64,000 bases of DNA from contig NC_134472.1 in the NCBI RefSeq assembly GCF_964194025.1, positions 67,456,001-67,520,000 of the forward strand, read 5' to 3'. The DNA is from Convolutriloba macropyga. Taxonomy: Eukaryota. A model generated the notes under the pieces. The model ran no database searches and was not told the origin of the DNA. It saw only the letters and a list, made by a program, of their open reading frames with translations. The position numbers and the translations under genes were made by a program. Positions 10,330-37,105 of this stretch are shown here, piece by piece. Within the stretch, counting starts at the first letter, position 1, and every line of letters starts with the position of its first letter.

Positions 10330-10495
10330 GTCATCAACAGCGTCCTAACACACACTCCTACCAAAACTCTTTGACTCTGCCATCGCTGGCAACAGTAGGT
10401 GGCAGGAGTAGGTGTCTCCTCCACAGTTTACTGAAGCATAGACATGTGTTAGCTTCATCACATGTGCACCGACGGACTCATTCTCATTAGCTGCC
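10330..10495. repeat. Left remnant of the degenerate ~102-bp array interrupted by the Polinton
   Basis: gacatgtgttagcttcatca...ctcattagctgcc matches the units at 32895-33066 and 36430-37100, and continues at 32684 once the Polinton is removed. Confidence 0.6.
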
Positions 10496-10621
10496 AGTAG
10501 TATATAATACCTACGTAAAGAAAGGGGGGGTTATCATTCGACTCTTAACCATAGGATAATAGGTAGTGGCGGTTAAGTGGGAATAGGATAGGCGGGATAA
10601 AATCTTTCCGCCGCTGTTTAT
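10496..10621 (+). repeat. Polinton left terminal inverted repeat
   Basis: Reverse complement of 32552-32677 apart from G7 vs G6, one substitution and one 1-bp indel. Confidence 0.97.
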
Positions 10622-10785
10622 ATCCCTCTGCTATTCAATCTTTCCCTTTTGAGTCTTGCCGCTTTTGTTTCCCTTTAACTTTGCTTTCTGTCTCGCCGCT
10701 TGCTTTTGATTTCAAAACACTCAAACAAATTAAATTAAAACCAAATTTCACACTGCATGCAAAATCAATACTGGTTCAGTTTTGC

Positions 10786-10786
<1 letters not shown>

Positions 10787-10825
<39 letters not shown>
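10787..10825. repeat. (TC)n microsatellite just downstream of the pPolB stop
   Basis: About 19 uninterrupted TC units. Confidence 0.98.
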
Positions 10826-10827
<2 letters not shown>

Positions 10828-10853
10828 GCAATTAAATTTAATTATGCACACTA

Positions 10854-11446
10854 TTATCGCCTTGCAGTTTTGCACACTGGGCCCTCTGACTCGCTTTCAC
10901 TTGCTTCTTCTGCCTCAAAATTAATGAACGGATTATCGGGCGTAGAGTTTTCTTCAAAACTGGCATCGAAATCAACGATATCGCTACTTTCAATATCCGA
11001 ATCATTTATATTCTGAGCAGCGACAAAACCGGGGTCTGGTGGTTGCCATGTGTTGGAGCTTTGGGTGGTATCTGGAGAGGAATGTGGTACAACAAAACTG
11101 TTATCCCACTCTGGGCGAGAGCTCAAAAGTAAGTCGCTAAAATCGTCATAATCCCATTCCACATCGTCGTTATTCCAATTAATTTCATCGATAGCATAAT
11201 CGACAATTTCATAATGGCCAAACGGGAGGGTTTTTATGCCATCGGATAGTATATAGCGCTTGTTGTCAAAAGCTGACAGACAAATTTTGTTTGTAGTAAC
11301 TGTCTGCAGCCTGTGGTGGTCGGAAACAATCCTGGTGTTCTCTGAGCGCAGGTGGTTTCCAGTGCTGAGAGTGTTTAAGAAGTCGAAGTGGCGAAGATGT
11401 TGTTGTGCGGCCCTCGTCACCCCTTTTGCTGAAAGTTTTCGACAAC
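10854..11446 (-). CDS. pPolB C-terminal exon (thumb region plus acidic tail)
   Basis: Reads CRKLSAKGVTRAA...NKICLSAFDNKRYILSDGIKTLPFGH, the typical Polinton pPolB C-terminus. Preceded by a branch point, polypyrimidine tract and AG. Confidence 0.88.
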
Positions 11447-11584
11447 CTAAAAGAAGGAAAGAAATGAGAAAAATTAGGTGCTATTATAATTACTAACACC
11501 CTATGTAAATATAATACGATTGAACACCTTCCAGATGCCTATTAACCCAATACGAATTTTTATACAACAACTAACAATTTTGTT

Positions 11585-14500
11585 TTATGAGATTTGTTTC
11601 GGCTTCAAACAGATAAAGTCAGTAATATAGTCGCCGGCGAATTCGTCCTTGTATTTGAGGACGACTCTTTTGTTAGAGGTATCGTAAAGAAAGTGATTGG
11701 GTGGGTAATTTGAGAAATCAAAATGACTTAATACTGACTGAGGCTTCTGCGATAACTCTGTATAAAAATCTTCGCTTTTTATCGCATAAAGGAGACTATC
11801 TGTATCGCTGTAAAGAAGGCGACAATTAAAGTTGGGGCGCATGACATTGTAATGGAATGAGTACATGTGGAATTTTGCAAGATCTAATATAGTCGCTCCC
11901 ACAATAGTGGGAGTGTTCCAATAAATGGACTTCGGCCGTGTGGTCAAGGCTGCTAAATTCTCCCCAAAGATCATATAGCGATCAAACTCAAATCTGGATA
12001 TTATCTTCAGCGCATGCTCGGCATCTCGTGAGATTGTTATTTTACTTCTGCGTGTTTTCGATTCGCAGTTTTTACTATAAACTGCATTATTCATCAGTTT
12101 ATAAAAGTTCTCTTCAAACTTGTTTGACGCAACTTGCCGCTTTTCACTATTTAGTGTAATGTATGGCGACAGCCAGTTTTCTTGTCGAAATTGAAGCACT
12201 CTGTGAACTTTCCTGATTACCAAGCCGAGTTGGACATAGAGTTTCAGCAGTTTGTAGTGGAGCACGTATCTCTCTTTATCAAAGAACGTTTGCAGGAGTT
12301 TCTTTACTTTGGAAGATGGGAGATTGTGTTGTTCTTTTAATTCGATCTGGTAATCGCTCAACCACTCATCTTCAACCACGTCTTTTGTGGGCGCCAACGG
12401 AAAATCGCGATGCTCATCATGAAGGCTCGGCGGGTAAGAGATATCGACCTCTACAAAGTATCCAATGCTAACGTCATCGGCGGTGTCCAAAATCTCTTGA
12501 AGTTGAATATCTGCGTTGAACGCAAAGTCGGCGAGCGGTAGTTTCTCTAATTGCATTACGCCACCATAAAGGTTATTAGCGTCGACACAGAAACCAAAAC
12601 AGGATTCCTCCGTGCTATCGTGGTTGGGAATATAGGAGTTATTTGCAGTGAAGCGCCGACTTTCAAAGACAGATGTGACTCCACCGCGAATTGCGGGTTC
12701 AATCATGTCCAAGTGTTCGCGCTCAGTCAGTAACTCGACATTGGCTTTGCAGATTCTAAGTGATGCTTCTTTAGCCATATTGGGTAGAGTGAAGAAGTGC
12801 ATACAGGTCAGTTTATACGTATCGAAACTCAACTGTCGATGGAATTCGCAAACACATGCGAGTAGTGCACAGTCGAGCTTCAAGTATGAGTCATGATAAT
12901 CCTGCAGTGTTCCACATTCCAGAATTTCCCACATCCTGCGTGCATGTTGTAAATTAGTCTCCGTTACCTTCACTGCCCCTCCGTCCAGAGTGTTACCCCA
13001 CTTGCTCAGTGGTGGGAGACTGGTGTCACTGAACTTGGACCGACCAGTCACATAAGAGTAAGGGTAGTAGCTTTTCTGTTTAAGTAGCTGAAGGTTAGCA
13101 TCAGATAATGTAGAAAACATTGCCCTCATTATTTCGAAACGGTCATCGGGTAAAATTTCAACAAGTTTCTCTAAAGAACTGTTCATCATCTTGAAGGAGT
13201 CTATGAATCGAAGATATTCATAAACTTTCACTGTTTTTCCCTTTTCCGTTACGAAAGTGTCAATAAGCACACCAAATGTCATTGATATGTATTTTTCGTT
13301 GGTGGCTGGTATGATGCTGATGGTTGTGGTTGGCTCGCAGTTTTTCAGTGCCAAGCAAATGTGATGTAAGTCATAATTTTGAATATTATGACCTACAACA
13401 GGGGTGAAATTGATATTTCGTCTCAAGCGATTGCATTTCTCATGTGCCCATCCCAAGAATTTACCACTGTAGTGGCAATGGTCCAGGTCAATTGTGTTCT
13501 CTGGATCTTCCGTTTCTGAAAACGATTTTTCACAAATCCAACAGTGCGTAGCGTTAGACTTTCCCAAGTTTCGTCTATCGCTTTTGAAGAAAGGGTGCTT
13601 CCTTTTCTGCTGATAAATATCTCTGGCTAGTTTGTGAAGCATTTTGACAAAATTTGTCATGCAAGCAGGAGAACTGTCTACATGATGAAAGATTGGCTTT
13701 GATGAGTGGTGATCTATCACTGTTAGCGCAAAGCCACACGGTTCATGTATCTCCTTGACCTGTGTAAAGGCTTTATCACTTGGTCCCTTGCAAGAAGACA
13801 CGGGTCGTAAGAAAGACTCGAAGTCAAAATAGATAACAAGATGGACAAACCATGTAGCAGCCAAGTTCGTGAATTTGTATGAGTTGTTCTCACTTGAAGG
13901 CATATGAATAACAGCAGGTGCATTTTTGCAACAGTTATTGAGATGTAGGTTGTAACTTTCAAGTCCTTCTCGACAAATCCAAAAACAGTTTCGACAAATT
14001 TTGTAGGAGAATCTGTAATCAAGTCCTGGCACGTAGCAAACAACCTTCACCAGGTTTGTAATGAGGACGTAGTGATGACGGCCACAGTCGTACAGCAAAA
14101 GTGAATCCATTACAAAATCTGAGCTGTATGACGAAATTTTTAGAGGGAAAAACTGGCCTTTGTCGCATCCAAACACGTTTAACTGAACGTTGTTGAGTGT
14201 TACAAATTGAGGAATGTCTGCAAAGCCCATGGGCATAGTAAGATTGCCCAGAGGTTGATGCAGTCCTGGTTGATTATATGTAGTTGGTGAAGTTTTGTCG
14301 GTTTGATAGTTTCGATCAATTCTATCTAAACTTATCTGATGATACATTTGATAAGCGGCCACAAAACAATACCTGAAGCAATCTCGATCTTCGTGGTTCC
14401 TAACGTTGAGCAATCCTCTGCAGTTGGCAATTTTTGACGGCAACGCGATGTATGATGAACCAAGAATTGGTCTGAAACGTGCGAATTTGACGTCAACTTT

Positions 14501-14785
14501 GAGAACTTTTTCGAGTGTCCAACCACTCCCCAATGAGTTGAATGTTGTCAATACGCTCATCATCTTCTCCACCATTTGCCAATACGCTTCATCCGACAGT
14601 CCGTTTGCATAGACAGGAGTCATCAGAGAGTTTGCGTATATTTCAAAACGGTCATCTTCTGGCATATCTGGCTCATCATGCACAACTTTGACAAGCCGCA
14701 ATTTTGCACACAGTTGAACTTTTTGAGGACCCTGGGTCAACTGCTCACTTATTAGAGTGTCTATTTTGGGTTTTTGTATCCGCAT
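11585..14785 (-). CDS. Protein-primed family B DNA polymerase (pPolB), main body, 1066 aa
   Basis: GSGW and GSSYI.LP N-terminal motifs; exonuclease motifs YFDFES and HNIQNYD; endonuclease VII-like insert CWIC...DHCHYSGKFLGWAHEKCN; RFIDSFKMM; polymerase motifs DANNLYG, KLMNNAVYSK and YSDTDS. Confidence 0.97.
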   Translation of the reverse strand: MRIQKPKIDTLISEQLTQGPQKVQLCAKLRLVKVVHDEPDMPEDDRFEIYANSLMTPVYANGLSDEAYWQMVEKMMSVLTTFNSLGSGWTLEKVLKVDVKFARFRPILGSSYIALPSKIANCRGLLNVRNHEDRDCFRYCFVAAYQMYHQISLDRIDRNYQTDKTSPTTYNQPGLHQPLGNLTMPMGFADIPQFVTLNNVQLNVFGCDKGQFFPLKISSYSSDFVMDSLLLYDCGRHHYVLITNLVKVVCYVPGLDYRFSYKICRNCFWICREGLESYNLHLNNCCKNAPAVIHMPSSENNSYKFTNLAATWFVHLVIYFDFESFLRPVSSCKGPSDKAFTQVKEIHEPCGFALTVIDHHSSKPIFHHVDSSPACMTNFVKMLHKLARDIYQQKRKHPFFKSDRRNLGKSNATHCWICEKSFSETEDPENTIDLDHCHYSGKFLGWAHEKCNRLRRNINFTPVVGHNIQNYDLHHICLALKNCEPTTTISIIPATNEKYISMTFGVLIDTFVTEKGKTVKVYEYLRFIDSFKMMNSSLEKLVEILPDDRFEIMRAMFSTLSDANLQLLKQKSYYPYSYVTGRSKFSDTSLPPLSKWGNTLDGGAVKVTETNLQHARRMWEILECGTLQDYHDSYLKLDCALLACVCEFHRQLSFDTYKLTCMHFFTLPNMAKEASLRICKANVELLTEREHLDMIEPAIRGGVTSVFESRRFTANNSYIPNHDSTEESCFGFCVDANNLYGGVMQLEKLPLADFAFNADIQLQEILDTADDVSIGYFVEVDISYPPSLHDEHRDFPLAPTKDVVEDEWLSDYQIELKEQHNLPSSKVKKLLQTFFDKERYVLHYKLLKLYVQLGLVIRKVHRVLQFRQENWLSPYITLNSEKRQVASNKFEENFYKLMNNAVYSKNCESKTRRSKITISRDAEHALKIISRFEFDRYMIFGENLAALTTRPKSIYWNTPTIVGATILDLAKFHMYSFHYNVMRPNFNCRLLYSDTDSLLYAIKSEDFYTELSQKPQSVLSHFDFSNYPPNHFLYDTSNKRVVLKYKDEFAGDYITDFICLKPKQIS

Positions 14786-15165
14786 AAATTTTCGAGATCA
14801 TTGGACTCTTCGGCCGCTGTTGACTCGAACGATCTCAGTACTCCATGGAATGCACTTTCCAACGGAGTGTCTCGAGGCTGAATTTGTTCACCTAGGACGG
14901 GTAAGTGATAAACGGAAGTCATATGATGTACGTAAAGATGGCAATCGTTGAATCCGAGTAGGCAGTTTTGACAGCAATTGGTGAATCGTTGGTGTGCAGT
15001 TTTCATGTGTTCTTCGAGCAAAGAAATCTTCCGACAAGTAAATTCGCATAATGAGCATTGATATACGGGTAAACCAATCTCATCAGGATGGAATTTATGC
15101 TCATGCCTGGAGCGATTTCCTTTTGTACTCAGAATAGAATCACAATAACGACACTTGAAACCCAT
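14761..15165 (-). CDS. C2H2 zinc-finger ORF; likely N-terminus of pPolB in a shifted frame
   Basis: CRYC..HEHKFH, CSLC..HMKTAH and CQNC..HMTSVYH, then ESAFHGVLRSF. Overlaps the pPolB ORF, which is in the -1 frame. Confidence 0.8.
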   Translation of the reverse strand: MGFKCRYCDSILSTKGNRSRHEHKFHPDEIGLPVYQCSLCEFTCRKISLLEEHMKTAHQRFTNCCQNCLLGFNDCHLYVHHMTSVYHLPVLGEQIQPRDTPLESAFHGVLRSFESTAAEESNDLENLCGYKNPK

Positions 15166-15558
15166 TTTTGAATTGTCTAACTTTAGTAAGAACGAATTGT
15201 TAAACTCGAGTACGAACAGTTGAGCTAGAGAAACGAATGAACAAGAAATGGCTTCTCGGGTTTACAGTATTAGAGACTACAGTACTGCATAGACGCCAAA
15301 TTCGAAGTTTTGAAATGCTGTTTTCTGATTGGTCGGTTTTGGCGCATACCTTTATTTCGAAATTTTGTTAATTTTGAGAGAAAAAAGATTTGTTTTCAAC
15401 TCTCCATTGCTTTTGTATGCCAAAATATACCACCACAGGGAACCCTACCGAGTATTGCTGATCATCGTTTGTGTCAAAAAACTTTTTTTGAAAACCTGGA
15501 AAAACATGCTAATATTCAAAATTGTAATAAAAAGCGCTATTTTAAACATTTTCAATTA

Positions 15559-18500
15559 CTATTTTATTTCTGCGTCTTTTCGATTCGCAGTTTTTACCAT
15601 AAACTGCATTTTTCATCAGTTTATAAAAGTTCTCTTCAAACTTGTTTGACGCAACTTGCCGCTTTTCACTATTTAGTGTAATGTATGGCGACAGCCAGTT
15701 TTCTTGTCGAAATTGAAGCACTCTGTGAACTTTCCTGATTACCAAGCCGAGTTGGACATAGAGTTTCAGCAGTTTGTAGTGGAGCACGTATCTCTCTTTA
15801 TCAAAGAACGTTTGCAGGAGTTTCTTTACTTTGGAAGACGGGAGATTGTGTTGTTCTTTTAATTCGATCTGGTAATCGCTCAACCACTCATCTTCAACCA
15901 CGTCTTTTGTGGGCGCCAACGGAAAATCGCGATGCTCATCATGAAGGCTCGGCGGGTAAGAGATATCGACCTCTACAAAGTATCCAATGCTAGCGTCATC
16001 GGCGGTGTCCAAAATCTCTTGAAGTTGAATATCTGCGTTGAACGCAAAGTCGGCGAGCGGTAGTTTCTCTAATTGCATTACGCCACCATAAAGGTTATTA
16101 GCGTCGACACAGAAACCAAAACAGGATTCCTCCGTGCTATCGTGGTTGGGAATATAGGAGTTATTTGCAGTGAAGCGCCGACTTTCAAAGACAGATGTGA
16201 CTCCACCGCGAATTGCGGGTTCAATCATGTCCAAGTGTTCGCGCTCAGTCAGTAACTCGACATTGGCTTTGCAGATTCTAAGTGATGCTTCTTTAGCCAT
16301 ATTGGGTAGAGTGAAGAAGTGCATACAGTCCAGTTTATACGTATCGAAACTCAACTGTCAATGGAATTCGCAAACACATGCGAGTAGTGCACAGTCGAGC
16401 TTCAAGTATGAGTCATGATAATCCTGCAGTGTTCCACATTCCAGAATTTCCCACATCCTGCGTGCATGTTGTAAATTAGTCTCCGTTACCTTCACTGCCC
16501 CTCCGTCCAGAGTGTTACCCCACTTGCTCAGTGGTGGGAGACTGGTGTCACTGTACTTGGACCGACCAGTCACATAAGAGTAAGGGTAGTAGCCTTTCTG
16601 TTTAAGTAGCTGAAGGTTAGCATCAGATAATGTAGAAAACATTGCCCTCATTATTGCCCCCATTAGAAAACATTGCCCCCAAGAATTTACCACTGTAGTG
16701 GCAATGGTCCAGGTCAATTGTGTTCTCTGGATCTTCCGTTTCTGAAAACGATTTTTCACAAATCCAACAGTGCGTAGCGTTAGACTTTCCCAAGTTTCGT
16801 CTATCGCCTTTGAAGAAAGGGTGCTTGCTTTTCTGCTGATAAATATCTCTGGCTAGTTTGTGAAGCATTTTGACAAAATTTGTCATGCAAGCAGGAGAAC
16901 TGTCTACATGATGAAAGATTGGCTTTGATGAGTGGTGATCTATCATTGTTAGCGCAAAGCCACACGGTTCATGTATCTCCTTGACCTGTGTAAAGGCTTT
17001 ATCACTTGGTCCCTTGCAAGAAGACACGGGTCGTAAGAAAGACTCGAAGTCAAAATAGATAACAAGAGGGACAAACCATGTAGCAGCCAAGTTCGTGAAT
17101 TTGTATGAGTTGTTCTCACTTGAAGGCATATGAATAACAGCAGGTGCATTTTTGCAACAATTATTGAGATGTAGGTTGTAACTTTCAAGTCCTTCTCCAC
17201 AAATCTAAAAACAGTTTCGACAAATTTTGTAGGAGAATCTGTAATCAAGTCCTGGCACGTAGCAAACAACCTTCACCAGGTTTGTAATGAGGACGTAGTG
17301 ATGACGGCCACAGTCGTACAGCAAAAGTAAATCCATTACAAAATCTGAGCTGTATGACAAAAATTTTAGAGGGAAAAACTGGCCGTTGTCGTATCCAAAC
17401 ACGTTTAACTGAACGTTGTTTAGTGTTACAAATTGAGGAATGTCTGCAAAGCCCATGGGCATAGTAAAATTGCCCAGAGGTTGATGCAGTCCTGGTTGAT
17501 TGTCTGTAGTTGGTGAAGTTTTGTCGGTTTGATAGTTTCGATCAATTCTATCTAAACTTACGATGATACATGTGATAAGCGGCCACAAAACAATAGCTGA
17601 AGCAATCTCGATCTTCGTGGTTCCTAACGTTGAGCAATCCTCTGCAGTTGGCAATTTTTGACGGCAACGCGATGTATGATGAACCAAGAATTGGTCTGAA
17701 ACGTGCGAATTTGACGTCAACTTTGAGAAATTTTTCGAGTGTCCAACCACTCCCCAAAGAGTTGAATGTTGTCAATACGCTCATCATCTTCTCCACCATT
17801 TGCCAATACGCTTCATCCGACAGTCCGTTTGCATAGACAGGAGTCATCAGAGAGTTTGCGTATATTTCAAAACGGTCATCTTCTGGCATATCTGGCTCAT
17901 CATGCACAACTTTGACAAGCCGCAATTTTGCACACAGTTGAACTTTTTGAGGACCCTGGGTCAACTGCTCACTTATTAGAGTGTCTATTTTGGGTTTTTG
18001 TATCCGCATAAATTTTCGAGATCATTGGACTCTTCGGCCGCTGTTGACTCGAACGATCTCAGTACTCCATGGAATGCACTTTCCAACGGAGTGTCTCGAG
18101 GCTGAATTTGTTCACCTAGGACGGGTAAGTGATAAACGGAAGTCATATGATGTACGTAAAGATGGCAATCGTTGAATCCGAGTAGGCAGTTTTGACAGCA
18201 ATTGGTGAATCGTTGGTGTGCAGTTTTCATGTGTTCTTCGAGCAAAGAAATCTTCCGACAAGTAAATTCGCATAATGAGCATTGATATACGGGTAAACCA
18301 ATCTCATCAGGATGGAATTTATGCTCATGCCTGGAGCGATTTCCTTTTGTACTCAGAATAGAATCACAATAACGATACTGGAAACCCATTTTTGAATTGT
18401 CTAACTTTAGTAAGAACGAATTGTTAAACTCGAGTACGAACAGTTGAGCTAGAGAAACGAATGAACAAGAAATGGCTTCTCGGGTTTACAGTATTAGAGA

Positions 18501-18783
18501 TTACAGTACTGCATAGATGCCAAATTCGAAGTTTTGAAATGCTGTTTTCTGATTGGTCGGTTTTGGCGCATACCTTTATTTCGAAATTTTGTTAATTTTA
18601 AGAGAAAAAAGATGTGTTTTCAACTCTCCATTGCTTTCGTATGCCAAAATATACCACCACAGGGAACCCTACCGAGTATTGCTGATCATCGTTTGTGTCA
18701 AAAAACTTTTTTTGAGAACCTGAAAAAACATGCTTATATTCAAAATTGTAATAAAAAGCGCTATTTTATGCATTTTCAATTAC
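15559..18783 (-). pseudogene. Second, tandemly duplicated and 3'-truncated copy of ZnF-pPolB with its upstream region
   Basis: Near-identical to 12038-15558. Fragments at 17985-18389, 17548-18009, 17205-17750, 16623-17129, 16358-16759 and 15542-16354. Has a ~320-bp internal deletion near 16655 and ends just after NAVYGKNCES. Confidence 0.95.
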
Positions 18784-20097
18784 GGATGGTTAGAGTTGTC
18801 CTACGTTCTTAAGTGTGATGAGCAAAAATGCTCCCCGTGCCGAAAAACATAGGACCCATATAAAAAAATTGCTCAAAAATAAACAGAAAAAAAGTTTGTT
18901 TTTCTGTCAATCAAGTCTTTAATTAACAATTACATGACAATTACATGACATAAACATGTGTCTTTTTTCTGAGGCCTTTTTTGATGACAGCTGTTATGAG
19001 ATAAATTTACACTGAGGGCCCAATAAGTCCAAAAATTTAAAGAAAACCGATCTAACATCTTTCCTTAGGGTACTTCATATGCTAATTAATGCCAGATGTT
19101 AATGTGACATTAATTGCCAGATGTTTCGAAAATCGATGAAGGAGCCGTTTTTTGATGATGATGCTTATGACCAATAATGTCGGGCATCAAGCAGTGAGTA
19201 CAAAACCGTTGCAAAAATTTGAATTTTTTTTCAGTAATTAGTAATTAGGTTAATTAGCCCTTAATTAGTCGCTAATTAGAGGCTAATTATCTCCATAACG
19301 GATGAGTAAAATTTGACGAGTGTGATGAGATGTTTTGTACTTTTGAGTATGCTGAGTCTTACTGAACAATCAGTTTCATCCCAAGTATTTTTGGAACCTT
19401 CTTTTTTGGGGTCAAAAATAAGAGGTCATGTGTTAAAAAAATTTTTTTTTTTGATTTTTTTTCGTTTTTTTTAAACTAACATGCTCTTTTTTTTCAATTG
19501 ATCCCCAAGTAACAAATGAGAGTTGATTCTAGTGTAAGCTGAAGAGGGCATCTACTGAATTAAGTGTCAAAATTTGACGTTTGAAATGCATTTTTGCGAA
19601 ATATTTTCTTTGATTATTTTTTATTTTTTGAACAGTTCTTCGACTTATGAATTGAATTTGGAATTCAATCCATGCTACAGCTGTGGCATTGAGTTAACAT
19701 GTCATTAGCGTCAATACCGCATACTCTCACATATGGCTATTTCTCTAAACTTTATGTTTAATATATATAATAATAACAAAAATTTTGCAGATTGGGAAAA
19801 GTATTTCTGGATATAATATTGAAAAATCTCACCACGTCATAGTAGTTGTAATAATTGATTGTTTGTTAGGAAACAAATGTTTACGTCATAATGAAAATCT
19901 TTTCTGATCATGTTCGAACTTGATCAGTAGCAATGTTTTAATTTCTTTGACTCAGCAGATTTAAAGCTATAAAACAGATTTAAAAAGTTAAATTCAGCTT
20001 TTAAAAAGTTGAAATCACACATTCTTGAAACAAAATCATTTTAGCATCTCACTTTATAAAAGAGTTTTGTGGTGATCCAATAAGTTTAGTTTTCAAG

Positions 20098-20793
20098 TTA
20101 ATCAAATAACTCCATTAGAGTATTCTCAGGTAGCCGTTTCTTTGTTGCATTGCAAATCTTTGGCGTGTCTGTGACACCAAAAACACATGCTGGTTCTGGT
20201 GTTTGAAATTGTGTAGCTGACAGTAACGTTGTATCAAACTGGTTGTCACTGAACAGAGCCGTAGAATTGTTCTTGTGAATTCCCGCAAAGAGAGATGGAC
20301 TAGATGTCGGTGTCAAACTGGGACTCGGATCAACTGCTGGTGTTACTGGCAAGCTGGCTGAATCCAATTGCGATTGATTTTCTGGGGAGCAAGGTGATGA
20401 CTTTATGCCCCACATGTCAGCTAAGTTTTCGCAAGCCTGATAAGCCCCTAGCTGGTTTTCAAACAGAGGCACACATTCGCAATCGTAACGAAACAAAATT
20501 CGTTTAACGTCGTCAGGTAATGACTCCATGCCAAGACGTTGAAATGCTGGCGAAGTTTTTGGAGGTAAATGTCCTCCTGATGTAATAAGACTGCAATCTG
20601 CTGGTTCTGTCTTCTCTGGTAAAGAAGCAATTGCGTTAATGAAAAACTTGGGTATCAAGCAGTGCTGGTAAGTTTGCCAAACATCGCCTTGTCTTTTCTG
20701 TTGAATAAGCACAACAAAGTTTTCGAACACTGTCTGATAAACCAATGTTCGCTCCAAGGAAATTACAGATTCAGCAAGTATTTGAACGGACAT
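20098..20793 (-). CDS. Polinton accessory protein of unknown function with S/P/T-rich C-terminus
   Basis: Uninterrupted ORF (to 20889 from a non-ATG start; first ATG gives MSVQIL...) in AT-rich DNA. No motif recognised. Confidence 0.6.
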   Translation of the reverse strand: MSVQILAESVISLERTLVYQTVFENFVVLIQQKRQGDVWQTYQHCLIPKFFINAIASLPEKTEPADCSLITSGGHLPPKTSPAFQRLGMESLPDDVKRILFRYDCECVPLFENQLGAYQACENLADMWGIKSSPCSPENQSQLDSASLPVTPAVDPSPSLTPTSSPSLFAGIHKNNSTALFSDNQFDTTLLSATQFQTPEPACVFGVTDTPKICNATKKRLPENTLMELFD

Positions 20794-21191
20794 ATTTTTT
20801 GTACAAATTTTGAGAAAGAAATTAAAACCAATTTGATAGAAGACTGTTGGTAGGTGTTTGTCTGGTAACGAACTGTTGAAAGAAAGCAAAGTGCACTGAA
20901 CGCAAGGTTTAAAGAAAATGAATAACTATTTTTAAAGTAATATTGCACAACGTGTAATTCAACAAATTATATCTGGGGTCAAATATGGTTTTAATTTTGG
21001 TAGTGTATGTGCTCTGATATATGCTCTAAATTTTGTTATTATACATGGGTCGATACACTTTATAATGTGTACTAACTCAGTTCTTATCCAGAGCGTATTT
21101 TATTATTAGCATTTCATTGTACGCTGGTGCATGTTTATTCTTATCAGAATATCATTACTGCTGTAGGTTCACTTGTGCTTCTAATTATATC

Positions 21192-24900: not shown

Positions 24901-24901
24901 T

Positions 24902-26672: not shown

Positions 26673-26682
26673 TTTTTTTACT

Positions 26683-27431
26683 TCAGGAAAAGAAAGACCA
26701 CATCTTCTGACTGGTCTCTTCTTTGTCTGGCGTTTGGTCCGTTTCTTCTTTATATTTTTTTCGGGTTGGTTTTAAGCCACTGAGTCGTTCTCCAGTAGAG
26801 GAGAACTCTTGTTGACTGGGTTGTTCTCTACTTGGGAAAAATTCTTGTTCACTTTCAGACGAGGCTTCCAAGATTTGCTTGGCATGTGTATTTGCAACAA
26901 GATGAGGTGAGATATTAAGAGCAAATAAAATTTTTGAGTAGTTTTCAATGTCATTTTTTTAGTTGGTTGCTGTAGATTGTACAGAAATGTTGAAGCTTTG
27001 ATGCCCAGTGTTTCTTTATTAACGTGAAGAACGTCATTCGACTCTATGGTGACTGTTTCAGATTGGTTAATCAAGTCAAGTATGATTTTTGATCTTTTGA
27101 TTTGGTTTTTATTCATAACTTCTAGCTCTATCATTATAGAGGTGAAATCGTCGCTTTTTCTTTGTTTTTTCACTACCGGTTCAATCTCGCTGTCTTCGCT
27201 CATGGGTTCTGTTTTCTCCTCTTCTACTGTTTCAATCATCAGTTTTTTTGCAGTCTCAACTGGTTCAAATGCTTTCTCTGGTTTTTCCATTGAGTTGCAC
27301 TGGTTTCTTTGCAAAAGAGACAGCTGTGCAGCTTTTTGTTTATAAAGGGGATTGTCCAAAACTTCTTTTTTTACCGGTTGATGTGAAGCAAACATTCGTT
27401 TTGGAATTAAGATGAATTCTTCGGTGAGCAT
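26683..27431 (-). pseudogene. Conserved Polinton ORF of unknown function between the small ORF and integrase, frameshifted near 26950
   Basis: ORFs 26772-27458 and 26683-26871 join across an A-run. The ATG overlaps the upstream stop (TAATG). Confidence 0.65.
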
Positions 27432-30008
27432 TATGATTTTGTCAAATATCGATAACAAGCGAAACCAACAATTTTGAACAAATCTGTTTCTCTAGCAAAA
27501 AGTTGCCTCTTTTCTTTCAAACTTGTTTGTCTAGACAATAGCTTTCTGAATGATTTTTCATAACCTTCTACAACACTTTTTCTTATTGGAACATTACCAT
27601 TGACAATGTTGAGCAAACATTCGCAAAGGAATTTAATGAATTTATTTTGAGCTCTCTCGATCTTCTCTTTTAGTTTTGTATCCGATATGTCTAGCAGCCG
27701 CCCCAGCATACAAACTTCTTTCTCTCTCATCGCTCAAATTTGTTGAAGCTTTGATGCTCAGTGTTTCTTTATTAACGTGAAGAACGTCGTTCGAGTCTAT
27801 GGTGACTGTTTCAGATTGGTTAATCAAGTCAAGTATGATTTTTGATCTTTTGATTTGGTTTTTATTCAAAACTTCTAGCTCTATCATTATAGAGGTGAAA
27901 TCGTCGCTTTTTCTTTGTTTTTTTTTTACTACCGGTTCAATCTCGCTGTCTTCGCTCATGGGTTCTGTTTTCTCCTCTTCTACTGTTTCAATCATCAGTT
28001 TTTTTGCAGCCTCAACTGGTTCGAATAATTTCTCTGGTTTTTCCATTGAGTTGCACTGGTTTCTTTGCAAAAGAGACAGCTGTGCAGCTTTTTGTTTATA
28101 AAGGGGATTGTCCAAAACTTCTTTTTTTACCGGTTGATGTGAAGCAAACATTCGTTTTGGAATTAAGATGATTTCTTCGGTGAGCATTATGATTTTGTCA
28201 AATATCGATAACAAGCGAAACCAACAATTTTGACCAAATCTGTTTCTCTAGCAAAAAGTTGCCTCTGTTCTTTCAAACTTGTTTGTCTAGACAATAGCTT
28301 TCTGAATGATTTTTCATAACCTTCTACAACACTTTTTCTTATTGGAACATTACCATTGACAATGTTGAGCAAACTTTCGCAAAGGAATTTAATGAATTTA
28401 TTTGGAGCTCTCTCGATCTTCTCTTTTAGTTTTGTATCCGATATGTCTAGCAGCCGCCCCAGCATACAAACTTCTTTCTCTCTCATCGCTCAAATTTGTT
28501 GAAGCTTTGATGCCCAGTGTTTCTTTATTAACGTGAAGAACGTCGTTCGAGTCTATGGTGACTGTTTCAGATTGGTTAATCAAGTCAAGTATGATTTTTG
28601 ATCTTTTGATTTGGTTTTTATTCAAAACTTCTAGCTCTATCATTATAGAGGTGAAATCGTCGCTTTTTCTTTGTTTTTTTTTACTACCGGTTCAATCTCG
28701 CTGTCTTCGCTCATGGGTTCTGTTTTCTCCTCTTCTACTGTTTCAATCATCAGTTTTTTTGCAGCCTCAACTGGTTCGAATAATTTCTCTGGTTTTTCCA
28801 TTGAGTTGCACTGGTTTCTTTGCAAAAGAGACAGCTGTGCAGCTTTTTGTTTATAAAGGGGATTGTCCAAAACTTCTTTTTTTACCGGTTGATGTGAAGC
28901 AAACATTCGTTTTGGAATTAAGATGATTTCTTCGGTGAGCATTATGATTTTGTCAAATATCGATAACAAGCGAAACCAACAATTTTGACCAAATCTGTTT
29001 CTCTAGCAAAAAGTTGCCTCTGTTCTTTCAAACTTGTTTGTCTAGACAATAGCTTTCTGAATGATTTTTCATAACCTTCTACAACACTTTTTCTTATTGG
29101 AACATTACCATTGACAATGTTGAGCAAACATTCGCAAAGGAATTTAATGAATTTATTTTGAGCTCTCTCGATCTTCTCTTTTAGTTTTGTATCCGATATG
29201 TCTAGCAGCCGCCCCAGCATACAAACTTCTTTCTCTCTCATCGCTCAAATTTGTTGAAGCTTTGATGCCCAGTGTTTCTTTATTAACGTGAAGAACGTCG
29301 TTCGAGTCTATGGTGACTGTTTCAGATTGGTTAATCAAGTCAAGTATGATTTTTGATCTTTTGATTTGGTTTTTATTCAAAACTTCTAGCTCTATCATTA
29401 TAGAGGTGAAATCGTCGCTTTTTCTTTGTTTTTTTTTACTACCGGTTCAATCTCGCTGTCTTCGCTCATGGGTTCTGTTTTCTCCTCTTCTACTGTTTCA
29501 ATCATCAGTTTTTTTGCAGCCTCAACTGGTTCGAATAATTTCTCTGGTTTTTCCATTGAGTTGCACTGGTTTCTTTGCAAAAGAGACAGCTGTGCAGCTT
29601 TTTGTTTATAAAGGGGATTGTCCAAAACTTCTTTTTTTACCGGTTGATGTGAAGCAAACATTCGTTTTGGAATTAAGATGATTTCTTCGGTGAGCATTAT
29701 GATTTTGTCAAATATCGATAACAAGCGAAACCAACAATTTTGACCAAATCTGTTTCTCTAGCAAAAAGTTGCCTCTGTTCTTTCAAACTTGTTTGTCTAG
29801 ACAATAGCTTTCTGAATGATTTTTCATAACCTTCTACAACACTTTTTCTTATTGGAACATTACCATTGACAATGTTGAGCAAACTTTCGCAAAGGAATTT
29901 AATGAATTTATTTGGAGCTCTCTCGATCTTCTCTTTTAGTTTTGTATCCGATATGTCTAGCAGCCGCCCCAGCATACAAACTTCTTTCTCTCTCATCGCT
30001 CAAATTTG
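26987..30008. repeat. Four tandem copies of a 755-756-bp unit
   Basis: The 99-aa ORF recurs at 27431, 28187, 28942 and 29697. Junctions read caaatttgttgaagctttg. Confidence 0.97.
27431..27730 (-). CDS. Small conserved Polinton protein (LCECLLNIVNGNVP), copy 1 of 4
   Basis: The motif F...CEC.LN..NGNVP is typical of the small gene after the ATPase in Polintons. Intact copies also at 28187-28486, 28942-29241 and 29697-29996. Confidence 0.8.
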   Translation of the reverse strand: MREKEVCMLGRLLDISDTKLKEKIERAQNKFIKFLCECLLNIVNGNVPIRKSVVEGYEKSFRKLLSRQTSLKEKRQLFARETDLFKIVGFACYRYLTKS

Positions 30009-30639
30009 TGATAACGGCTTTAGCTGATGGCAGATAAAAAATTGATGGTCCTGAAGGAACAATATTTGAACAGTAGCGCAAGACGTCTGATGTTTTTGGA
30101 TCCAAATCAATTAATAAATGACCAAACGGTTCTTTGGTTGCGAGCTCATAGCTTTCTTTTAAAAATTGTGCATTATTCAACTGTCGACCAATAAAACTAA
30201 TCTGTTGTGTGTCACGGGGTGATTTGAACAATATGATATGTGTTGTGTTTAGATCAATTGTTCTGGACCATCTGCTTTGCTGGAACAAATTGTGTTTAAC
30301 ATAAATTACACTGATGTTTCTATATCGCCCTGCGGTTGCTAATTTGGAAAATTCTTTGTCATTAAAGATTTCTTCACATGAATCATCGAACACAAGAAGG
30401 CAGTTCTCTAACTCTGAAATGAGCTCAAAATTGGAGATTTTTTAAAAATGTATGTTCAGTTTCTTCTCTAACGATTGGAATTTTGGCTGATCATGCTGAT
30501 AAAAATAATAAATTGTTTGAAACTCTGGGAAAAATGTGCCAATTAATAACATTTTGAAAATGAGCTCAGTTTTCCCGCAGCAAGACGGCCCGCAAACAGC
30601 CATGAACAACCGGTCATTGGTAGAAATAACTTTATTCAT
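29908..30639 (-). pseudogene. A32/FtsK-like genome-packaging ATPase with an in-frame stop at 30442-30444
   Basis: Walker A GPSCCGKT, Walker B LLVFDD, ATAGRYRNISVIYVKHNLF, RTIDLNTTHIILFKSPRD, PFGHLLIDL. Confidence 0.93.
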
Positions 30640-30910
30640 AACTTTGGATTTGTAGGAGCGTATCCAACTGTACAAGAAAGAAGTGAAAACCAAATGTGGA
30701 TTCTTCACAGTCAAGACTGAAAAAAACCAACTTGGTGAGAGATTCAGTTATAAGAAAAATTATTATAATGATTTGTGTACAGTATACAACCTCTGATCGA
30801 GGCAATCTCGAATTGCAAAACCTCCAAGATTGTCTTTCTTGGTGCTCGGCGTCAAAAACCAAGTCAGTTATGCCTCCACCCGAATCTAATTGATCTTCGG
30901 TTTGACTCAT
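30632..30910 (-). CDS. Small transmembrane protein, C-terminus probably frameshifted
   Basis: W.FC....PRSEVVY.TQIIIIIFLI hydrophobic helix. Lies immediately upstream of the ATPase. Confidence 0.65.
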   Translation of the reverse strand: MSQTEDQLDSGGGITDLVFDAEHQERQSWRFCNSRLPRSEVVYCTQIIIIIFLITESLTKLVFFSLDCEESTFGFHFFLVQLDTLLQIQSYE

Positions 30911-30963
30911 TGTGAAATAAAATTGTTCAAAAAATGAATTGCTTTCCAGGAATTTTTACATAA

Positions 30964-31218
30964 TTATTTAACTATAAAAAATTCATAAGAAATATATCCA
31001 GAGTCTTCGTCTCCTTGTTTGTAAGTGATTGCATAGTTTGCATTCATCGAATCTTGTTTATCTCTAAAAACAATTGACTCTACATTGTTCTCTTTAATTA
31101 GCTGCTTGATGTCATCGGGAAGAGTCTCATCGTCCAGAGACATCAGAACTGGTACTGCACGCTTGGGCGTAGGTAAAGGGGTTAGTTTCAACCTTTTCAT
31201 TTTCTCTTGTAAAGACAT
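30964..31218 (-). CDS. Hypothetical Polinton protein
   Basis: ATG-initiated 84-aa ORF in the tightly packed minus-strand gene block. Confidence 0.5.
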   Translation of the reverse strand: MSLQEKMKRLKLTPLPTPKRAVPVLMSLDDETLPDDIKQLIKENNVESIVFRDKQDSMNANYAITYKQGDEDSGYISYEFFIVK

Positions 31219-31456
31219 GGTACAATTGAAAGTACTCCAGTAGAGAAATATACGTTTTGAAAGCTTCTATTTCAGCACCAGCACACACAATCTGCTGTTT
31301 TCTCAAAACTGTTTGGCCTCTTGTGTCAATTTTTTCTTCCTTGATAAGATTAACCGTTAACTGATTTTCAGGCGTTATGCAACTGTAAACTGTCAAATTT
31401 GGAGACAAATTCACTTGTAGTAGAGACGGAGCTGGTTTCTCTAACCGACGATTCAT
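31127..31456 (-). CDS. Hypothetical Polinton protein
   Basis: ATG-initiated 109-aa ORF overlapping both neighbours. Confidence 0.5.
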   Translation of the reverse strand: MNRRLEKPAPSLLQVNLSPNLTVYSCITPENQLTVNLIKEEKIDTRGQTVLRKQQIVCAGAEIEAFKTYISLLEYFQLYHVFTRENEKVETNPFTYAQACSTSSDVSGR

Positions 31457-31952
31457 TCGTCAGCCACTGGTAAAAGAGTTTTGCCCTCTTATTGGCACAA
31501 TGCTTGGTTCTCTGTCGTTTTGGGCAACTCAATGCATGTAATTTACAAACTGGTGTCTCCCGATACAACTTCAAGTGTTCAATTTTTGGGCAGAACAAAG
31601 TTTCCAAGTTGATAACGTTCCTCTGTGACAGCTGTCGTAAAGTTTCCGTTTTTTCTAATCCTTTTGCGTAAAAATCAGAAAAGGGAAATCGAAGAACTAT
31701 ACTTTGAAAAATCTGTTGCAAATAATGATAAGGGTACTCTCCTGTCTCCCACGAGAGACCATGAAGCAAATTAGATACCCACAGGAAAGATCTTTGCTCA
31801 CTCGAACAAAGTATGTTAAATGATTTTGGAGGTAAAAACGAAATTATATCGTTGTAATTTTCGGTAGATACCGCAAGTTCTTTTATTATAAATCCAGATT
31901 TTTTACTTCGAAAGCCTTCAAAATCAAGAACAACCGCTCCGGATTTCAACAT
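31368..31952 (-). CDS. DnaQ/DEDD-like 3'-5' exonuclease-fold protein
   Basis: VVLDFEGF...FIIKELAV, HGLSWETG, YAKGLEK, INLE..CPK and C..H...HCA. The ORF is intact. Confidence 0.75.
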   Translation of the reverse strand: MLKSGAVVLDFEGFRSKKSGFIIKELAVSTENYNDIISFLPPKSFNILCSSEQRSFLWVSNLLHGLSWETGEYPYHYLQQIFQSIVLRFPFSDFYAKGLEKTETLRQLSQRNVINLETLFCPKIEHLKLYRETPVCKLHALSCPKRQRTKHCANKRAKLFYQWLTNESSVRETSSVSTTSEFVSKFDSLQLHNA

Positions 31953-32399
31953 TCCAGCAAATTGAATAAACTATTTTTGAAAGATTTTACGTATAAACAA
32001 AAAGCAATTCCAGTCACATGACCAAGGTACTCATTTGTCACTGAACAAGGTAATACGTAAGAATAGCCTGGACCCTTTTCACTATATTCAACCGGAAGCG
32101 TCGTGGAGTATGGCATGTAATCTCAAAATTTTTAAATTTTTGAAATATTTGACTAACGAAGAATTATCAATACCAATCAAACCTCCGTACGGCCGCAACT
32201 TCAACGCAATATCCAAATCAAGATCCGGATCCAAATGCAAACAAGTGGCTAAAAAGTATAAAAATCGTTTACCGTATTGTGAATATTCTTTTTCGATTTC
32301 CTTGTAAGTTTCGTGAATACTTTTCAAATCAAGCGTTGCTATAGTTGCCATTTGATCTATGCACACATTCTCCCAATAATGATCAATTTTTGCTAACAA
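31946..32399 (-). pseudogene. HD-motif protein, possibly phospholipase A2-like, frameshifted near 32090
   Basis: PYGGLIG...LHAILHDASG, then in a shifted frame EYSEKGPGYSYVLPC...GHVTGIAFCLYVK...LLEC*, overlapping the next ATG. Confidence 0.5.
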
Positions 32400-32551
32400 C
32401 TAACCAAAACCACTTAATCACACGTCTAAATATCACATAATAAGCCCCTCCCCTCTATTAGGGTAATGAGACTACTTTTTACATGTAGCGTTAAATTCAA
32501 ACGACCAGAAAGAACTAGCAAGAACGGCGGAATAGAACAATCCAAACGGCA

Positions 32552-32677
32552 ATAAACAGCAGGCGGAAAGATTTTATCCCGCCTAGCCTATTCCCACTTA
32601 ACCGCCACTACCTATTATCCTATGGTTAAGAGTCGAATGATAACCCCCCTTTCTTTACGTAGGTATTATATACTACT
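32552..32677 (-). repeat. Polinton right terminal inverted repeat
   Basis: Ends ...GGTATTATATACTACT, followed by the TSD GCTGCC. Confidence 0.97.
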
Positions 32678-33070
32678 GCTGCCACCGCAAGCCTTATAAA
32701 GTTGCTCGTAAATATCAACTTCAAACAAAGAGGTGACATGGCTAATCCTGTCCTGCGACAAAGCGCTCCCTCACATTACCTGTCCAATCACAGGCACCGG
32801 AAGTTGCCACTTACATTGGTCCGTCACAGCGGCCTCAATTACCTTTGCTGCCATTTCCAGCCACAATGGCTGCATCCTACTTTTGTTTAAATTAGACATG
32901 GGTGTTACATGGCCCCTCCAGCCGTGTGCGAACGCACTCTCTCACCATGGCTGTCACTGCCAGCTCTAGCGAGTGTCTTCTACAATTTTCATCGACATTA
33001 GATGTGTAATAGTGCCATCAGCCGTGTGCCAAAGCGTTTGTTCACCTTAGCTGCCGTCGCTATCCAATAA
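32678..33070. repeat. Degenerate ~102-bp tandem array, middle block
   Basis: The core (gc)tgcca-like motif recurs near 32681, 32782, 32850, 32953 and 33053, each preceded by cacctt/cacatt and often by atgtgt..tagc. Confidence 0.65.
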
Positions 33071-36000
33071 GGCTGCTCACAAAAAGTCACTGCGTCTTTT
33101 TTAGATCAACTAAGCAGCCAATAGGCGCCTAGTGCTTGTTCCGATCCCACTTGTGAGGGGAAGAACTATATACTCAAATGGGTTTTTTTTTGTTCAGACA
33201 ATTTTGGCCAATCGATATATTCATCGTAGAGAAATATGAGTAGTATCACTAACAAGCTCGTCCAGCGCAGAGTTCGGAATTAAAAAGATTTTTTGAAATT
33301 TGTTTTTTTGAGGAGTTATCGAGGAGTTTTTGAGGAGTTTTTTTTTAAGTTTTGTGCGAACACGTGATGTTTGGCATGTTTTGTTCACGTTTAGAATAAT
33401 TTTTGTTCAAATTAATTCTATGAAAATATTAATTCAAAACTATATTTTATAGAACAAATAAAACATTTTTGAGTTTTTAACAGATGAGAGGCCATAAAAA
33501 TGCTAGTTTTTGTCTCATAATGGAGTTTCCTATCCAAAAAATCGATTTCTAATTGAGAGCTGTTATCTTAAAAACAATTTTATATTTTTTTCAAGTCACC
33601 TAGAGACTGGTCACTTTTCAAATCAAACTGGTCACTGTTCTGTTGACGTCAAACTTCATCTACAGTCAAATGATGCCCAATGAAAAAATAATTCGTTTTC
33701 AAGGAGTTGATTGTAATTTTGTGGCTGCGACTTTGAGTTTTTGTAATTTTTATTAAAATTTTGATGTTCATTTTGAGATTCTAGTAAAGTTTTGAAATCC
33801 TATGGCGAAAACCCGTTCACTAAAATAGCTATACGTTTCCTGAAGAGCAGTAAGTGAACCTATGTAGAAATTTGAGTGGACGGCTAATGGCTGTTAAGGC
33901 TTTAAAAATAATTTTCTGTAAAATTTTTTTTTGAACATTTACAGATGTTAAATTGTTTCTGTGAACTGTTAGTCAGTCTGACTATTGACAGGGCCCACTT
34001 ATTTTCTCTTGCAACCAAAATTAAACCCAAAATTAAACTGTTAAGCTGTTTTATCGTCGAACTGTTGTCTTTATGACTTCGATATTACAACTTTTCAAAT
34101 TTTGTTTTAATTCTGGTTATTGTTTCAAAAATTTGATTCCCAATGAAGTCATATCACATTATTTTTTTATTGAAAGTTTTCATTGGCTTAGAAAAGACGA
34201 ACAATTGATCATAGATAACTTTTTCAGAGAAAAAACTTATGGCTTTAATTGCCTTGGCACTGTCTTTATGCACTTTTCCACTATTTTTTTTTGTTTCTGA
34301 CTGTATTTTTTGCCCTCCCCATAGTTATACGACTTATTGTGATGACTTTTTGATGAGTTAAGATTTTAAAAAATTTCGCCTTCCCATCGAGGCCTAACTT
34401 ATTACAACTTATTATTTATTGACTTCCGTTGAAAGCTTTTGAATTTCATTTAATGGCTTTGATATTGTTATTATTCTCTCAAAAATTTTGTGGTTAAAAA
34501 TTATTTGTTCATATTTGTTGGTTGTTTTGAAGTTCAAATGTTACATTTAATAATTGCATTGTTTTTAAAAAATGATTTATAAATGAAAAAGTTTTTTTCT
34601 GAATAGTTCATTTTTTATCGGCTTCGACACATTTCTCTCTAAGTTTATTTGCATGTTTTTTTCTCTATGTAGTCGTAAAATGCCGAGAAGTCTCATAGAT
34701 TTCTATCAGAGTGTAGACAAGACGAAGTTACTCATTGCAGTAACTTATAACATATAGCCTTAAAGTTTATGATATTATAATTTTTTCAAACTTTTTTAAA
34801 ACTATATAGTTTTTGTTGTTGTATTTGTCAACTTGTATCTATTTCTCATCATCAAAAAGCCACATCCACTTGTTTGTAATACAAATATTAGGTTGTTTTT
34901 TGATGTTACGTCGGAACTGATGTTTTGTTTGTTGAAATGCTTTTAATAAAGTTTGTTGATTGGTCAATATTTGTGTTCCTTTTCTCTTCTTTAAGCACAT
35001 TTGCTAATACCATATCTCAATGGTTTTCGAAAGTAGCCCATATGAAAATATTAATCTTTTTCGTATGATATTATTTGAATTAGAGATAACATTTGAAAAA
35101 AAAACATAAAATTCAGATTTCAACGGCTTCAATAATTTGTATACTTAGCAAATTGTTAGTAACCCTTTCAGTTTTTCTTCACCTTTAGCGTGCGTTTTTT
35201 AGGCTTTTTCTAACCAAAGACAATTTTTTGGTTTGTCTTTTGACTTTTTAGTAATTGTATTATATATTTTTTTTGTTAAAAGCGAACGGTTTTCAAGACT
35301 TTTGAAAAAATTTGGTTTAACAAAAATTAGTTGATTTTTGAATTTCATCACATTCTTTGTTCTTTTTGTCGACATTCTGCCTAGTCTCATTAATATAAAG
35401 TCCCATCTCCCTTGTATTAAGAAAAAAGTTAATTTATGTAGTTAAGGTTTTATCTGATTGTTTTTCGTTATAAGGTGCTTTTAAGTTTAGATGTTGGATT
35501 TTTGCCGTTGATTTTTTTTTGTTTTTTCGCATTTTATTTTTTGTTTCTTTCTCCAATATTATTATTAATGGCCGATCTCACAAAAACCAATCATAGCGCT
35601 GTAAAGAGGCCCGGCATTATTTAATTTATTTACTACTTAGTTTAACGATTTTTTAAATTCGAAGATCTTTTTTTGATTTTCTCTTCATTTGGTTGACAGT
35701 TAAGGGAAAATATAGATGAGCGCGGGTTGGAACAACATGTGCGAACGCACATTAACGAGCTTATTTGTTTTAATTTAGAATCGCATAGGTGTCCTACCTG
35801 AAAAAGTTCCGGACCAAAGAAACTTCCTCATCTTTCTTTCCGCCAACAATGTCAACTTAAAAAAAAAAGAACCCTGAACTCAATCCATTATTGCTGTGCA
35901 AAAACAAATGAGTAGATTGCGCTAAACAAAATGACTGTGCAAATCATCAATAATAATAGCAATGTCATTACTGAAAAAGTTATTTTTTCAAATTGGAAGC

Positions 36001-36429
36001 CAAGAAAAGTTAGTTTTTAAACCTTACGTTTCCAAGATAAACAATCCGATAACTTCATGCAAGGGTCTCTTTTAAATTCCTCAAAAATATGATTAAAGAT
36101 TTGTTTTTTGAATTTTTTCTTTTTTTTTGTTTTTTCTTAAAAGACAAGGTAAAAAATTCCAGTCCTGTAAAGCTTTTCTAACGAATGAATTGTCTAGTTT
36201 TGAGCTTTTGAATTTATAGCCCCAGTACTCGAGTCCAGTTCTTTCATTTTTGTTGATTTTCCAGGTTTTAAGTTAACGTTCCCTGCTTTCATCAAATTGC
36301 TGGCAGTTGGTTGGTTTAAATCATCCAGATGTAATTTATTCGCTTTAATTTCAAAAAATAATTCTTAGGTAGGATTTAATGCTGTAGTTTCAGATCTCTA
36401 GGTTGTCTGTCCAGTGTTAGAATAAGATT

Positions 36430-37105
36430 TTAGTTGAGCCTTCTCGTGATTCAGTGACACATGCACTAACAGCAGACATGCATTAACACCTTGTTGCCAT
36501 CGTCAGCCCAAATAGTCTTTATAAGTCAATTACACACATATATTTCAATTCTGCGCTAACCCTGCACCAATGAATATCTTCTTCGCCTTGTCACAGCTGC
36601 TATCGCCAGTTAGTCAGACCAAGTGAATACAAAATGTTTTTTGTTGAAATAAAGACGGCATATAGCCCCACCAGACTCGCGCAGCCACTTCTCTTTGCCT
36701 TAACTACCATCTGCATCCCCAACAGTGGAAATTCTTTTTTGGAAATTGTTGAGATGTAGATGTGTCATAGCTCCCTCGGTCGTTCTACAACACACTCCCT
36801 TTACATAACTGCCGCTGCCATATTCAAAACGCGATTCTCAAAATCTTAATTGACACGTAAATGTGTCATAACTTCATCAAACTTTGAGCAAAAAACTACC
36901 TCGCCTTTTTGGTCATGGTCAGCCCCAGAATCTGAGATCTATATAAATTTTGGACACATTGACGAAAACACACATCCTCACATTGGTTTCCTTCGCAAAC
37001 ACCAGTAAGCTTCTCCTGGAATGTTTTCTGGACAATGTGCATTTAGTAGCTCCCATAGCCGAGAAAAAAGCACCACCTCACAATAGTGGTCATTGCAAGT
37101 CCCCT
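36430..37105. repeat. Degenerate ~102-bp tandem array, right block (about 7 units)
   Basis: The core recurs near 36496, 36599, 36706, 36811, 36912, 36989 and 37089 (spacings 103, 107, 105, 101, 77, 100). Confidence 0.65.

What the first reader, a model, noticed from the sequence alone, without database searches (positions are those of the whole stretch)
10330..37105. Hidden ~102-bp array with a conserved ~65-nt core, split by the Polinton and by a second ~3.3-kb insert
Seen: about 13 highly diverged, GC-enriched units in three blocks (10330-10495, 32678-33070, 36430-37105). The approximate minus-strand consensus is ggctggcgATGGCagctaaggTGAg-(variable)-cTGAtggaGCTATgACAcat, and the spacers between cores are unrelated AT-rich sequence. 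The Polinton TSD GCTGCC is part of the most conserved motif, and removing the element restores one unit. In some units the ATGGC/GCTAT segments can pair, once with an apparent compensatory change (ATGAC/GTTAT near 36870-36916), and are followed by ACA. Inference: either an ancient satellite, or a cluster of small structured RNAs or regulatory cassettes (core plus variable spacer). Periods are mostly not multiples of 3, which argues against a live protein repeat.
Basis: partly seen in the sequence, partly recalled or inferred. Interest (0 to 1): 0.7.

Follow-up and report, generated by a model that had tools for sequence, protein, structure and literature searches.

The report
Decayed retrotransposon leader repeat array
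The hidden repeats are the worn-out remains of a tandem repeat that a family of jumping genes carries in front of its coding region, so this copy is an ordinary fossil; in the family's other copies the repeat is longer the older the insertion, which likely shows satellite DNA growing in place.

Summary
The array is real: about 13 units of a 101-bp repeat in three blocks, split in phase by a Polinton (10496-32677, TSD GCTGCC) and by a 3.3-kb patch of dispersed repeats. The small-RNA reading is not supported. The same monomer forms homogeneous arrays (0.4 to 56 kb) on at least 14 chromosome-scale contigs, always inside one BEL/Pao LTR retrotransposon family, between the 5' LTR/leader and gag-pol (30 of 30 leader loci). 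Right behind the window's array lie collinear, same-strand, stop-ridden remains of that family's gag-pol (37257-42522) and a 3'-LTR start (42584). The 'spacers' are homologous to the monomer, the core/spacer contrast fits uniform decay once the post-hoc choice of core is allowed for, and the proposed helix does not covary. The Polinton shows no preference for the motif (1 of 30 ends, its own). Tandem repeats in retrotransposon UTRs are known. Side result: across 16 TSD-matched full copies, array length rises with LTR divergence (Spearman 0.85). No RNA data were available. The scan noted a hairpin array in another retroelement leader before (e1-7243490, other genome).

The parts
10317..10495 (+). 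Block 1: first two decayed 101-bp units (second one cut by the Polinton at monomer position 64)
10490..10495 (+). Left 6-bp target-site duplication of the Polinton (GCTGCC)
10496..32677 (.). Polinton/Maverick, young (ends 99% identical over 116 nt); Pfam hits to pPolB (E 3e-6), adenoviral-type protease (9e-5), rve integrase (7e-7), weak A32 ATPase (0.08)
32678..32683 (+). Right target-site duplication (GCTGCC)
32684..33130 (+). Block 2: rest of unit 2, four further units and a partial one
33136..35771 (.). Dispersed 2.6-kb repeat (copies 75-79% identical elsewhere), class not determined
35862..36437 (.). Second dispersed repeat (about 540 bp at about 90% identity in many places, plus a 36-bp end piece), class not determined
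36437..37149 (+). Block 3: about seven decayed units
37257..42522 (+). Decayed BEL/Pao gag-pol remains, collinear with the live family (six segments, E 4e-31 to 0.18); 95-115 stops per frame, longest open stretch 95 codons
42530..42646 (+). 3' end of the element: purine-rich tract and start of the 3' LTR at 42584; another dispersed repeat follows from about 42715

Best explanation
The array is the decayed 5'-leader tandem repeat of an old BEL/Pao LTR retrotransposon copy whose broken gag-pol follows it in the window, and it was likely carried here by retrotransposition, left to mutate, and then hit by chance by a Polinton and by other dispersed repeats. Shown: the same 101-bp monomer lies between LTR/leader and gag-pol in the live family; collinear gag-pol remains and a 3'-LTR start lie downstream on the same strand; cores and spacers are both homologous to the monomer. 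Inferred: the order of events, neutral decay after insertion, and that this copy has no function. In the live family the array most likely works as a repeated cis-element of the element's leader (protein-binding sites on DNA, as in ZAM or gypsy 5'UTRs, or a string of small hairpins in the RNA); that role is untested. Long arrays likely grew in place after insertion by unequal exchange or replication slippage.
Against: No 5' LTR, primer-binding site or element TSD was found for the window's copy; leader similarity at 10128-10324 is borderline (42 against shuffle max 39; 40 against 40). No close sister of this old copy turned up (1 match, itself). With the core fixed in advance, it is better kept than the spacer by 6-7 points and 0 of 150 and 0 of 200 simulations reach that, so a slight unevenness is not excluded. 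Identities over aligned columns (array 63-64%, pol 58-69%) are inflated by the gap scheme: shuffles reach 52-59%, so 'equal decay of array and pol' is only roughly shown.
Confidence: 0.93

Rival explanations
1. Cluster of small structured RNAs or regulatory cassettes (conserved core, variable spacer), possibly co-opted from the dead element by the host.
For: Core kept slightly better than spacer (unit-vs-unit agreement 0.516 against 0.456; fixed-window simulations 0 of 200). One unit folds at z -2.0 on +.
Confidence: 0.04
2. A free-standing old satellite array that happens to lie next to an unrelated retrotransposon fossil, or the ancestral source from which the family captured its repeat.
For: No 5' LTR found; the window's units are the most diverged seen.
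Against: The remains start about 110 nt after the last unit, on the same strand and in the same order as in the live family, and match only this family among those tested. All 8 arrays whose upstream edge and all 8 whose downstream edge were compared share element flanks except one truncated downstream edge.
Confidence: 0.025
3. The GCTGCC motif is a preferred Polinton target.
For: The TSD falls in the best-kept motif of the unit.
Against: 1 of 30 Polinton ends has GCTGCC or its complement next to it and 1 of 28 flanks holds the repeat; both are the window's own (30 of 40 listed hits, from 234 candidates).
Confidence: 0.005

Closest known systems
BEL/Pao LTR retrotransposons (de la Chaux and Wagner, PMC3118150, passages seen; Achilles, PMC4580426, passages seen)
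   Same: LTRs of 0.2-1.2 kb, one gag-pol ORF with Peptidase_A17, RT and integrase in gypsy-like order; Achilles passage says repeats between LTR and ORF are common in BEL/Pao and Gypsy.
   Different: Arrays here reach 30-56 kb, far beyond the 4.2-10 kb element size given in PMC3118150; the window's copy is a fossil without a recognisable 5' LTR.
Tandem repeats in 5'UTRs of insect LTR retrotransposons: ZAM, Tirant, accord, gypsy (PMC8872304, passages seen); Culex Mag-lineage cqgypsy_24/25/66 (PMC3286476, passages seen)
   Same: Complex tandem array in the same place; 19 of 49 Drosophila 5'UTRs are so built per PMC8872304.
   Different: Different superfamily and sequence; enhancer, insulator or protein binding is shown for some of those and untested here.
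Ogre/Tat 3'UTR arrays that expand into satellites in Lathyrus sativus (PMC7004042, passages and Discussion seen; review PMC12628747, passages seen)
   Same: Short element-borne arrays that expand into long, homogenised arrays at some loci.
   Different: Plant Ty3/gypsy, 3'UTR; here an animal BEL/Pao 5' leader, and single insertions can be dated by their LTR pairs, which that paper's read-based method could not do.
H/ACA or C/D snoRNA, miRNA and SECIS clusters (recalled, not from a call)
   Same: About 65-nt GC-richer motifs at about 100-nt spacing.
   Different: No Rfam match, no conserved fold or covariation.

Membership tests
BEL/Pao LTR retrotransposon (live family) | Paired LTRs TG...CA with 5-bp TSD | tested here: met
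   237-bp LTRs; TSD matches in 16 of 24 full copies; TG...CA and 5-bp TSD as family traits are recalled
BEL/Pao LTR retrotransposon (live family) | gag-pol with Peptidase_A17 (Pao-specific Pfam family), DUF1759, RT, integrase after RT | tested here: met
   A17 E 2e-46, DUF1759 5e-18, RVT_1 1e-10, rve 4e-5 (below cut-off)
BEL/Pao LTR retrotransposon (live family) | Placement in the BEL/Pao clade by RT tree, and superfamily within it | not tested
   no tree built
BEL/Pao LTR retrotransposon (window copy) | Collinear gag-pol homology downstream of the array | tested here: met
BEL/Pao LTR retrotransposon (window copy) | Two LTRs, PBS and TSD | tested here: inconclusive
   3' LTR start at 42584; 5' LTR, PBS and TSD not detected
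Retrotransposon-borne UTR tandem array | Array in a fixed position and orientation relative to the coding domains | tested here: met
   30 of 30 leader loci; element maps
Structured small-RNA cluster | Shared fold with covarying pairs | tested here: not met
Structured small-RNA cluster | Discrete transcripts | not testable with these tools
   no RNA holder listed
Polinton/Maverick | TIRs starting AG, 6-bp TSD, pPolB, rve integrase, protease, ATPase | tested here: met
   (ATPase weak, E 0.08)
Polinton/Maverick | Major capsid protein | tested here: inconclusive
   no Pfam hit among the ORFs scanned; no fold search made

The most novel reading that the evidence does not exclude
The 101-bp unit is a selected cis-signal of the live element (five small hairpins on the sense strand, a multimerised packaging or Gag-binding signal) and, once inserted, each array grows roughly with time into a satellite, so that this BEL/Pao family is a dated, multi-locus time series of satellite birth in an animal, with the window's copy as the non-expanded, dead end state; other BEL/Pao families of this genome do the same with unrelated monomers.
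Probability: 0.3. Interest if true: 0.55.

Novelty: new member of a known kind. Interest (0 to 1): 0.28.

Why it matters
The window's array itself is a fossil and matters little; it is a good warning that a decayed retrotransposon leader mimics a 'core plus spacer' RNA cluster. The family behind it is more useful. Whether and how fast element-borne repeats grow into satellites is usually argued from size distributions; here each insertion carries its own clock (LTR pair) and its own array, and length tracks age. That makes growth rate and the effect of chromosomal position directly measurable.

Tried and rejected
TRF misses the array; the repeat finder sees only 4 copies of 35 nt. Rfam and ARAGORN: nothing relevant. 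Protein-repeat, snoRNA, SECIS, miRNA and micro-exon readings were considered by eye from recalled motifs and dropped once the 101-bp family was found. No RNA holder listed for 36400-37150; laying four contig sets on 32684-37400 showed single-copy depth over the blocks, very high depth over the insert and no joint skipping the insert among those shown; it says nothing on expression. Searches for sister copies of the old element were swamped by other repeats or found only itself. 5' LTR searches by alignment and by a leader profile failed. The exact 23-nt motif has 767 matches in the genome and none in metagenome contigs. PDB search with the long Polinton ORF: 0. One search counted the TSD twice by a slip and read the hexamers one base off; searches corrected these. 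Literature: six searches showed no paper on BEL/Pao leader arrays growing with insertion age; the library lacks most subscription papers and no supplements were opened, so this is no proof of absence. The centromere atlas preprint (10.64898/2026.09.17.752431, passages seen) gave nothing on this point.
Full report
Observation. The three blocks hold a real repeat. Searching the genome with block 2 gave 99 matches, one being the query, in clusters spaced 101 bp apart; the loci are homogeneous tandem arrays of a 101-bp, 57-58% GC monomer. A monomer profile run over the window gives 15 hits at E<=10, 14 of them on the + strand inside the three blocks. The blocks align to monomer multimers with score 726 against 135+-18 for 50 shuffles. 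Aligned separately to one real copy they give about 13 whole or near-whole units plus fragments at 10317-10495, 32684-33130 and 36437-37149, 46-74% identical over aligned columns (such identities are inflated by gaps, shuffles reach 52-59%). Units are about 49-50% alike pairwise, as expected if each decayed on its own. The Polinton runs 10496-32677 with TSD GCTGCC and splits one unit in phase. It has pPolB, protease and integrase hits and near-identical ends. The second insert is two dispersed repeats; the phase across it is unresolved.

Core and spacer. The spacers are not unrelated: 11 of 13 beat 500 shuffles at <=14 of 500, summed score 141 against -108+-18. The core is better kept by 6-7 points. 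Twelve folds of six relict units have z from -2.0 to +1.1. Rfam and ARAGORN find nothing here. No RNA run was listed, so expression is untested.

What carries the repeat. The young arrays share about 800 bp upstream and 6.45 kb downstream. The downstream part is one ORF of 2037 codons with DUF1759, zinc knuckle, RT, Peptidase_A17 and integrase, bounded by 237-bp LTRs with 5-bp TSDs: a BEL/Pao LTR retrotransposon. All 30 leader loci fetched (of 40 listed, 133 candidates; one is the query) are followed within 26 nt by the monomer. Searches place arrays or leaders on C1-C13 and C15 and on unplaced contigs.

The window's copy. DNA of the live element matches the window in six ordered, same-strand segments from 37266 to 42522 (E 4e-31 to 0.18) plus one out-of-order piece at 40314-40471, which fits the direct repeat seen. 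The 3' end aligns at 42530-42646 and the LTR starts at 42584. All three frames are closed by about 100 stops. The remains score 98 and 82 bits with two family members and nothing with 20 other BEL/Pao copies. The 5' LTR, primer site and TSD were not found. The geometry LTR/leader - array - gag-pol - LTR is thus shown for the family and, but for the 5' end, for this copy. Order of events (inferred): old insertion of the element, decay, then the dispersed repeats (75-90% to their relatives) and the young Polinton.

Polinton targeting. Of 30 Polinton ends fetched (40 listed, 234 candidates), only the window's own has GCTGCC beside it, and of 28 flanks read only its own holds the repeat. The insertion is chance.

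How the array works in the live family. Two young copies fold on the sense strand into five small hairpins (z -3.2 and -2.9). Random 101-nt pieces give mean sense z of -2.6 to -3.2 in three young arrays but only -0.7 to -1.2 in four older-type arrays; antisense means run from -2.1 to +0.5; ORF and leader controls are near 0 (six pieces each). Among 1353 distinct monomers from 14 arrays, positions whose commonest letter differs between arrays fall in 5 of 54 stem and 19 of 47 other positions (Fisher p 3e-4). The structure came from one of these sequences, the arrays are related, and two-sided changes are few and mostly near expectation, so this is a hint, not covariation. In the relict, stems are not better kept (65% against 61%, p 0.23). 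A DNA-level role is as likely: passages of PMC8872304 and PMC3286476 report enhancer, silencer and insulator activity for 5'UTR tandem arrays of Drosophila elements, and PMC4580426 calls repeats between LTR and ORF common in BEL/Pao. My estimate: repeated cis-element of some kind 0.6, of which RNA structure about half; neutral by-product of template switching 0.4.

Growth after insertion. For 24 copies with two LTRs in hand, array span rises with LTR divergence (Spearman 0.84, p 4e-7; medians 2.2, 4.4 and 21 kb for <=1%, 1-3.5% and >3.5%). For the 16 with matching TSDs rho is 0.85 (p 4e-5). Arrays in copies whose LTRs differ by 4.6-8.5% hold 505-bp pieces with another copy >=99% identical (5 of 52, 2 of 19, 6 of 18; none of 15 in one copy at 4.2%), which points to duplication after insertion. 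Caveats: spans include unfetched gaps in some arrays; 11 or so loci without a second LTR in hand were left out, among them several short arrays of older type (about 0.15-1.1 kb) and long ones (15.6 and >=28 kb); age and subfamily are confounded; LTRs are only 237 bp; tandem arrays may be misassembled; and the window's copy, the oldest, has only about 13 units. The process is described for plant Ogre 3'UTR arrays (PMC7004042, Discussion read).

Verdict. Real feature, ordinary nature: a fossil leader array of a BEL/Pao retrotransposon, a new member of a known kind. Interest 0.28, most of it owed to the family-wide length-age trend rather than to this locus.

Noticed in passing
G000, 24 full copies of the family (e.g. 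L165, L170, L057/L058, L142-L062, L136-L135): Leader array length (0.56-56 kb) rises with LTR-LTR divergence; Spearman 0.84 (n=24), 0.85 (n=16 TSD-matched); near-identical internal duplications in older copies.
   Followed up: partly
L150-L158, L161, L162: 11 of 20 other BEL/Pao copies sampled carry unrelated tandem arrays upstream of their long ORF (periods 30/91 with 54/107, 90 with 128, 175, 43/128); three of six array types fold at mean z below -2.5. Their LTRs were not located, and some periods are multiples of 3, so a few may be coding.
   Followed up: partly
window 11585-18485 and 26988-29912: The Polinton has internal near-identical duplications of the pPolB region (offsets about 3.2 and 3.5 kb) and a 4 x 755-bp repeat; several of its genes are in pieces.
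   Followed up: no
window 52832-53398 and 56066-56986 (+): ORFs with PTP-like phytase / dual-specificity phosphatase hits (E 0.008 and 2e-18).
   Followed up: no
window 49647-51541 (+): Endonuclease and RT fragments of a LINE.
   Followed up: no
window 53790-53992: Two identical 101-bp copies in tandem, with no hit to the repeat studied here.
   Followed up: no
G000:C2:42208428-42246910 (L196, L144, L067, L068): A family copy whose 5' LTR is followed almost directly by a 33-kb array, the 550-nt leader being absent.
   Followed up: no
G000:C7:12558400-12578263, C5:69567107-69576999, C7:29713458-29787077, C6:56594774-56616322: Copies with duplicated array-plus-ORF-start or LTR-leader-array blocks, as expected from recombination between arrays.
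   Followed up: no
window 35724-35769 and 63389-63434: Two ends of the same dispersed repeat in opposite orientation.
   Followed up: no
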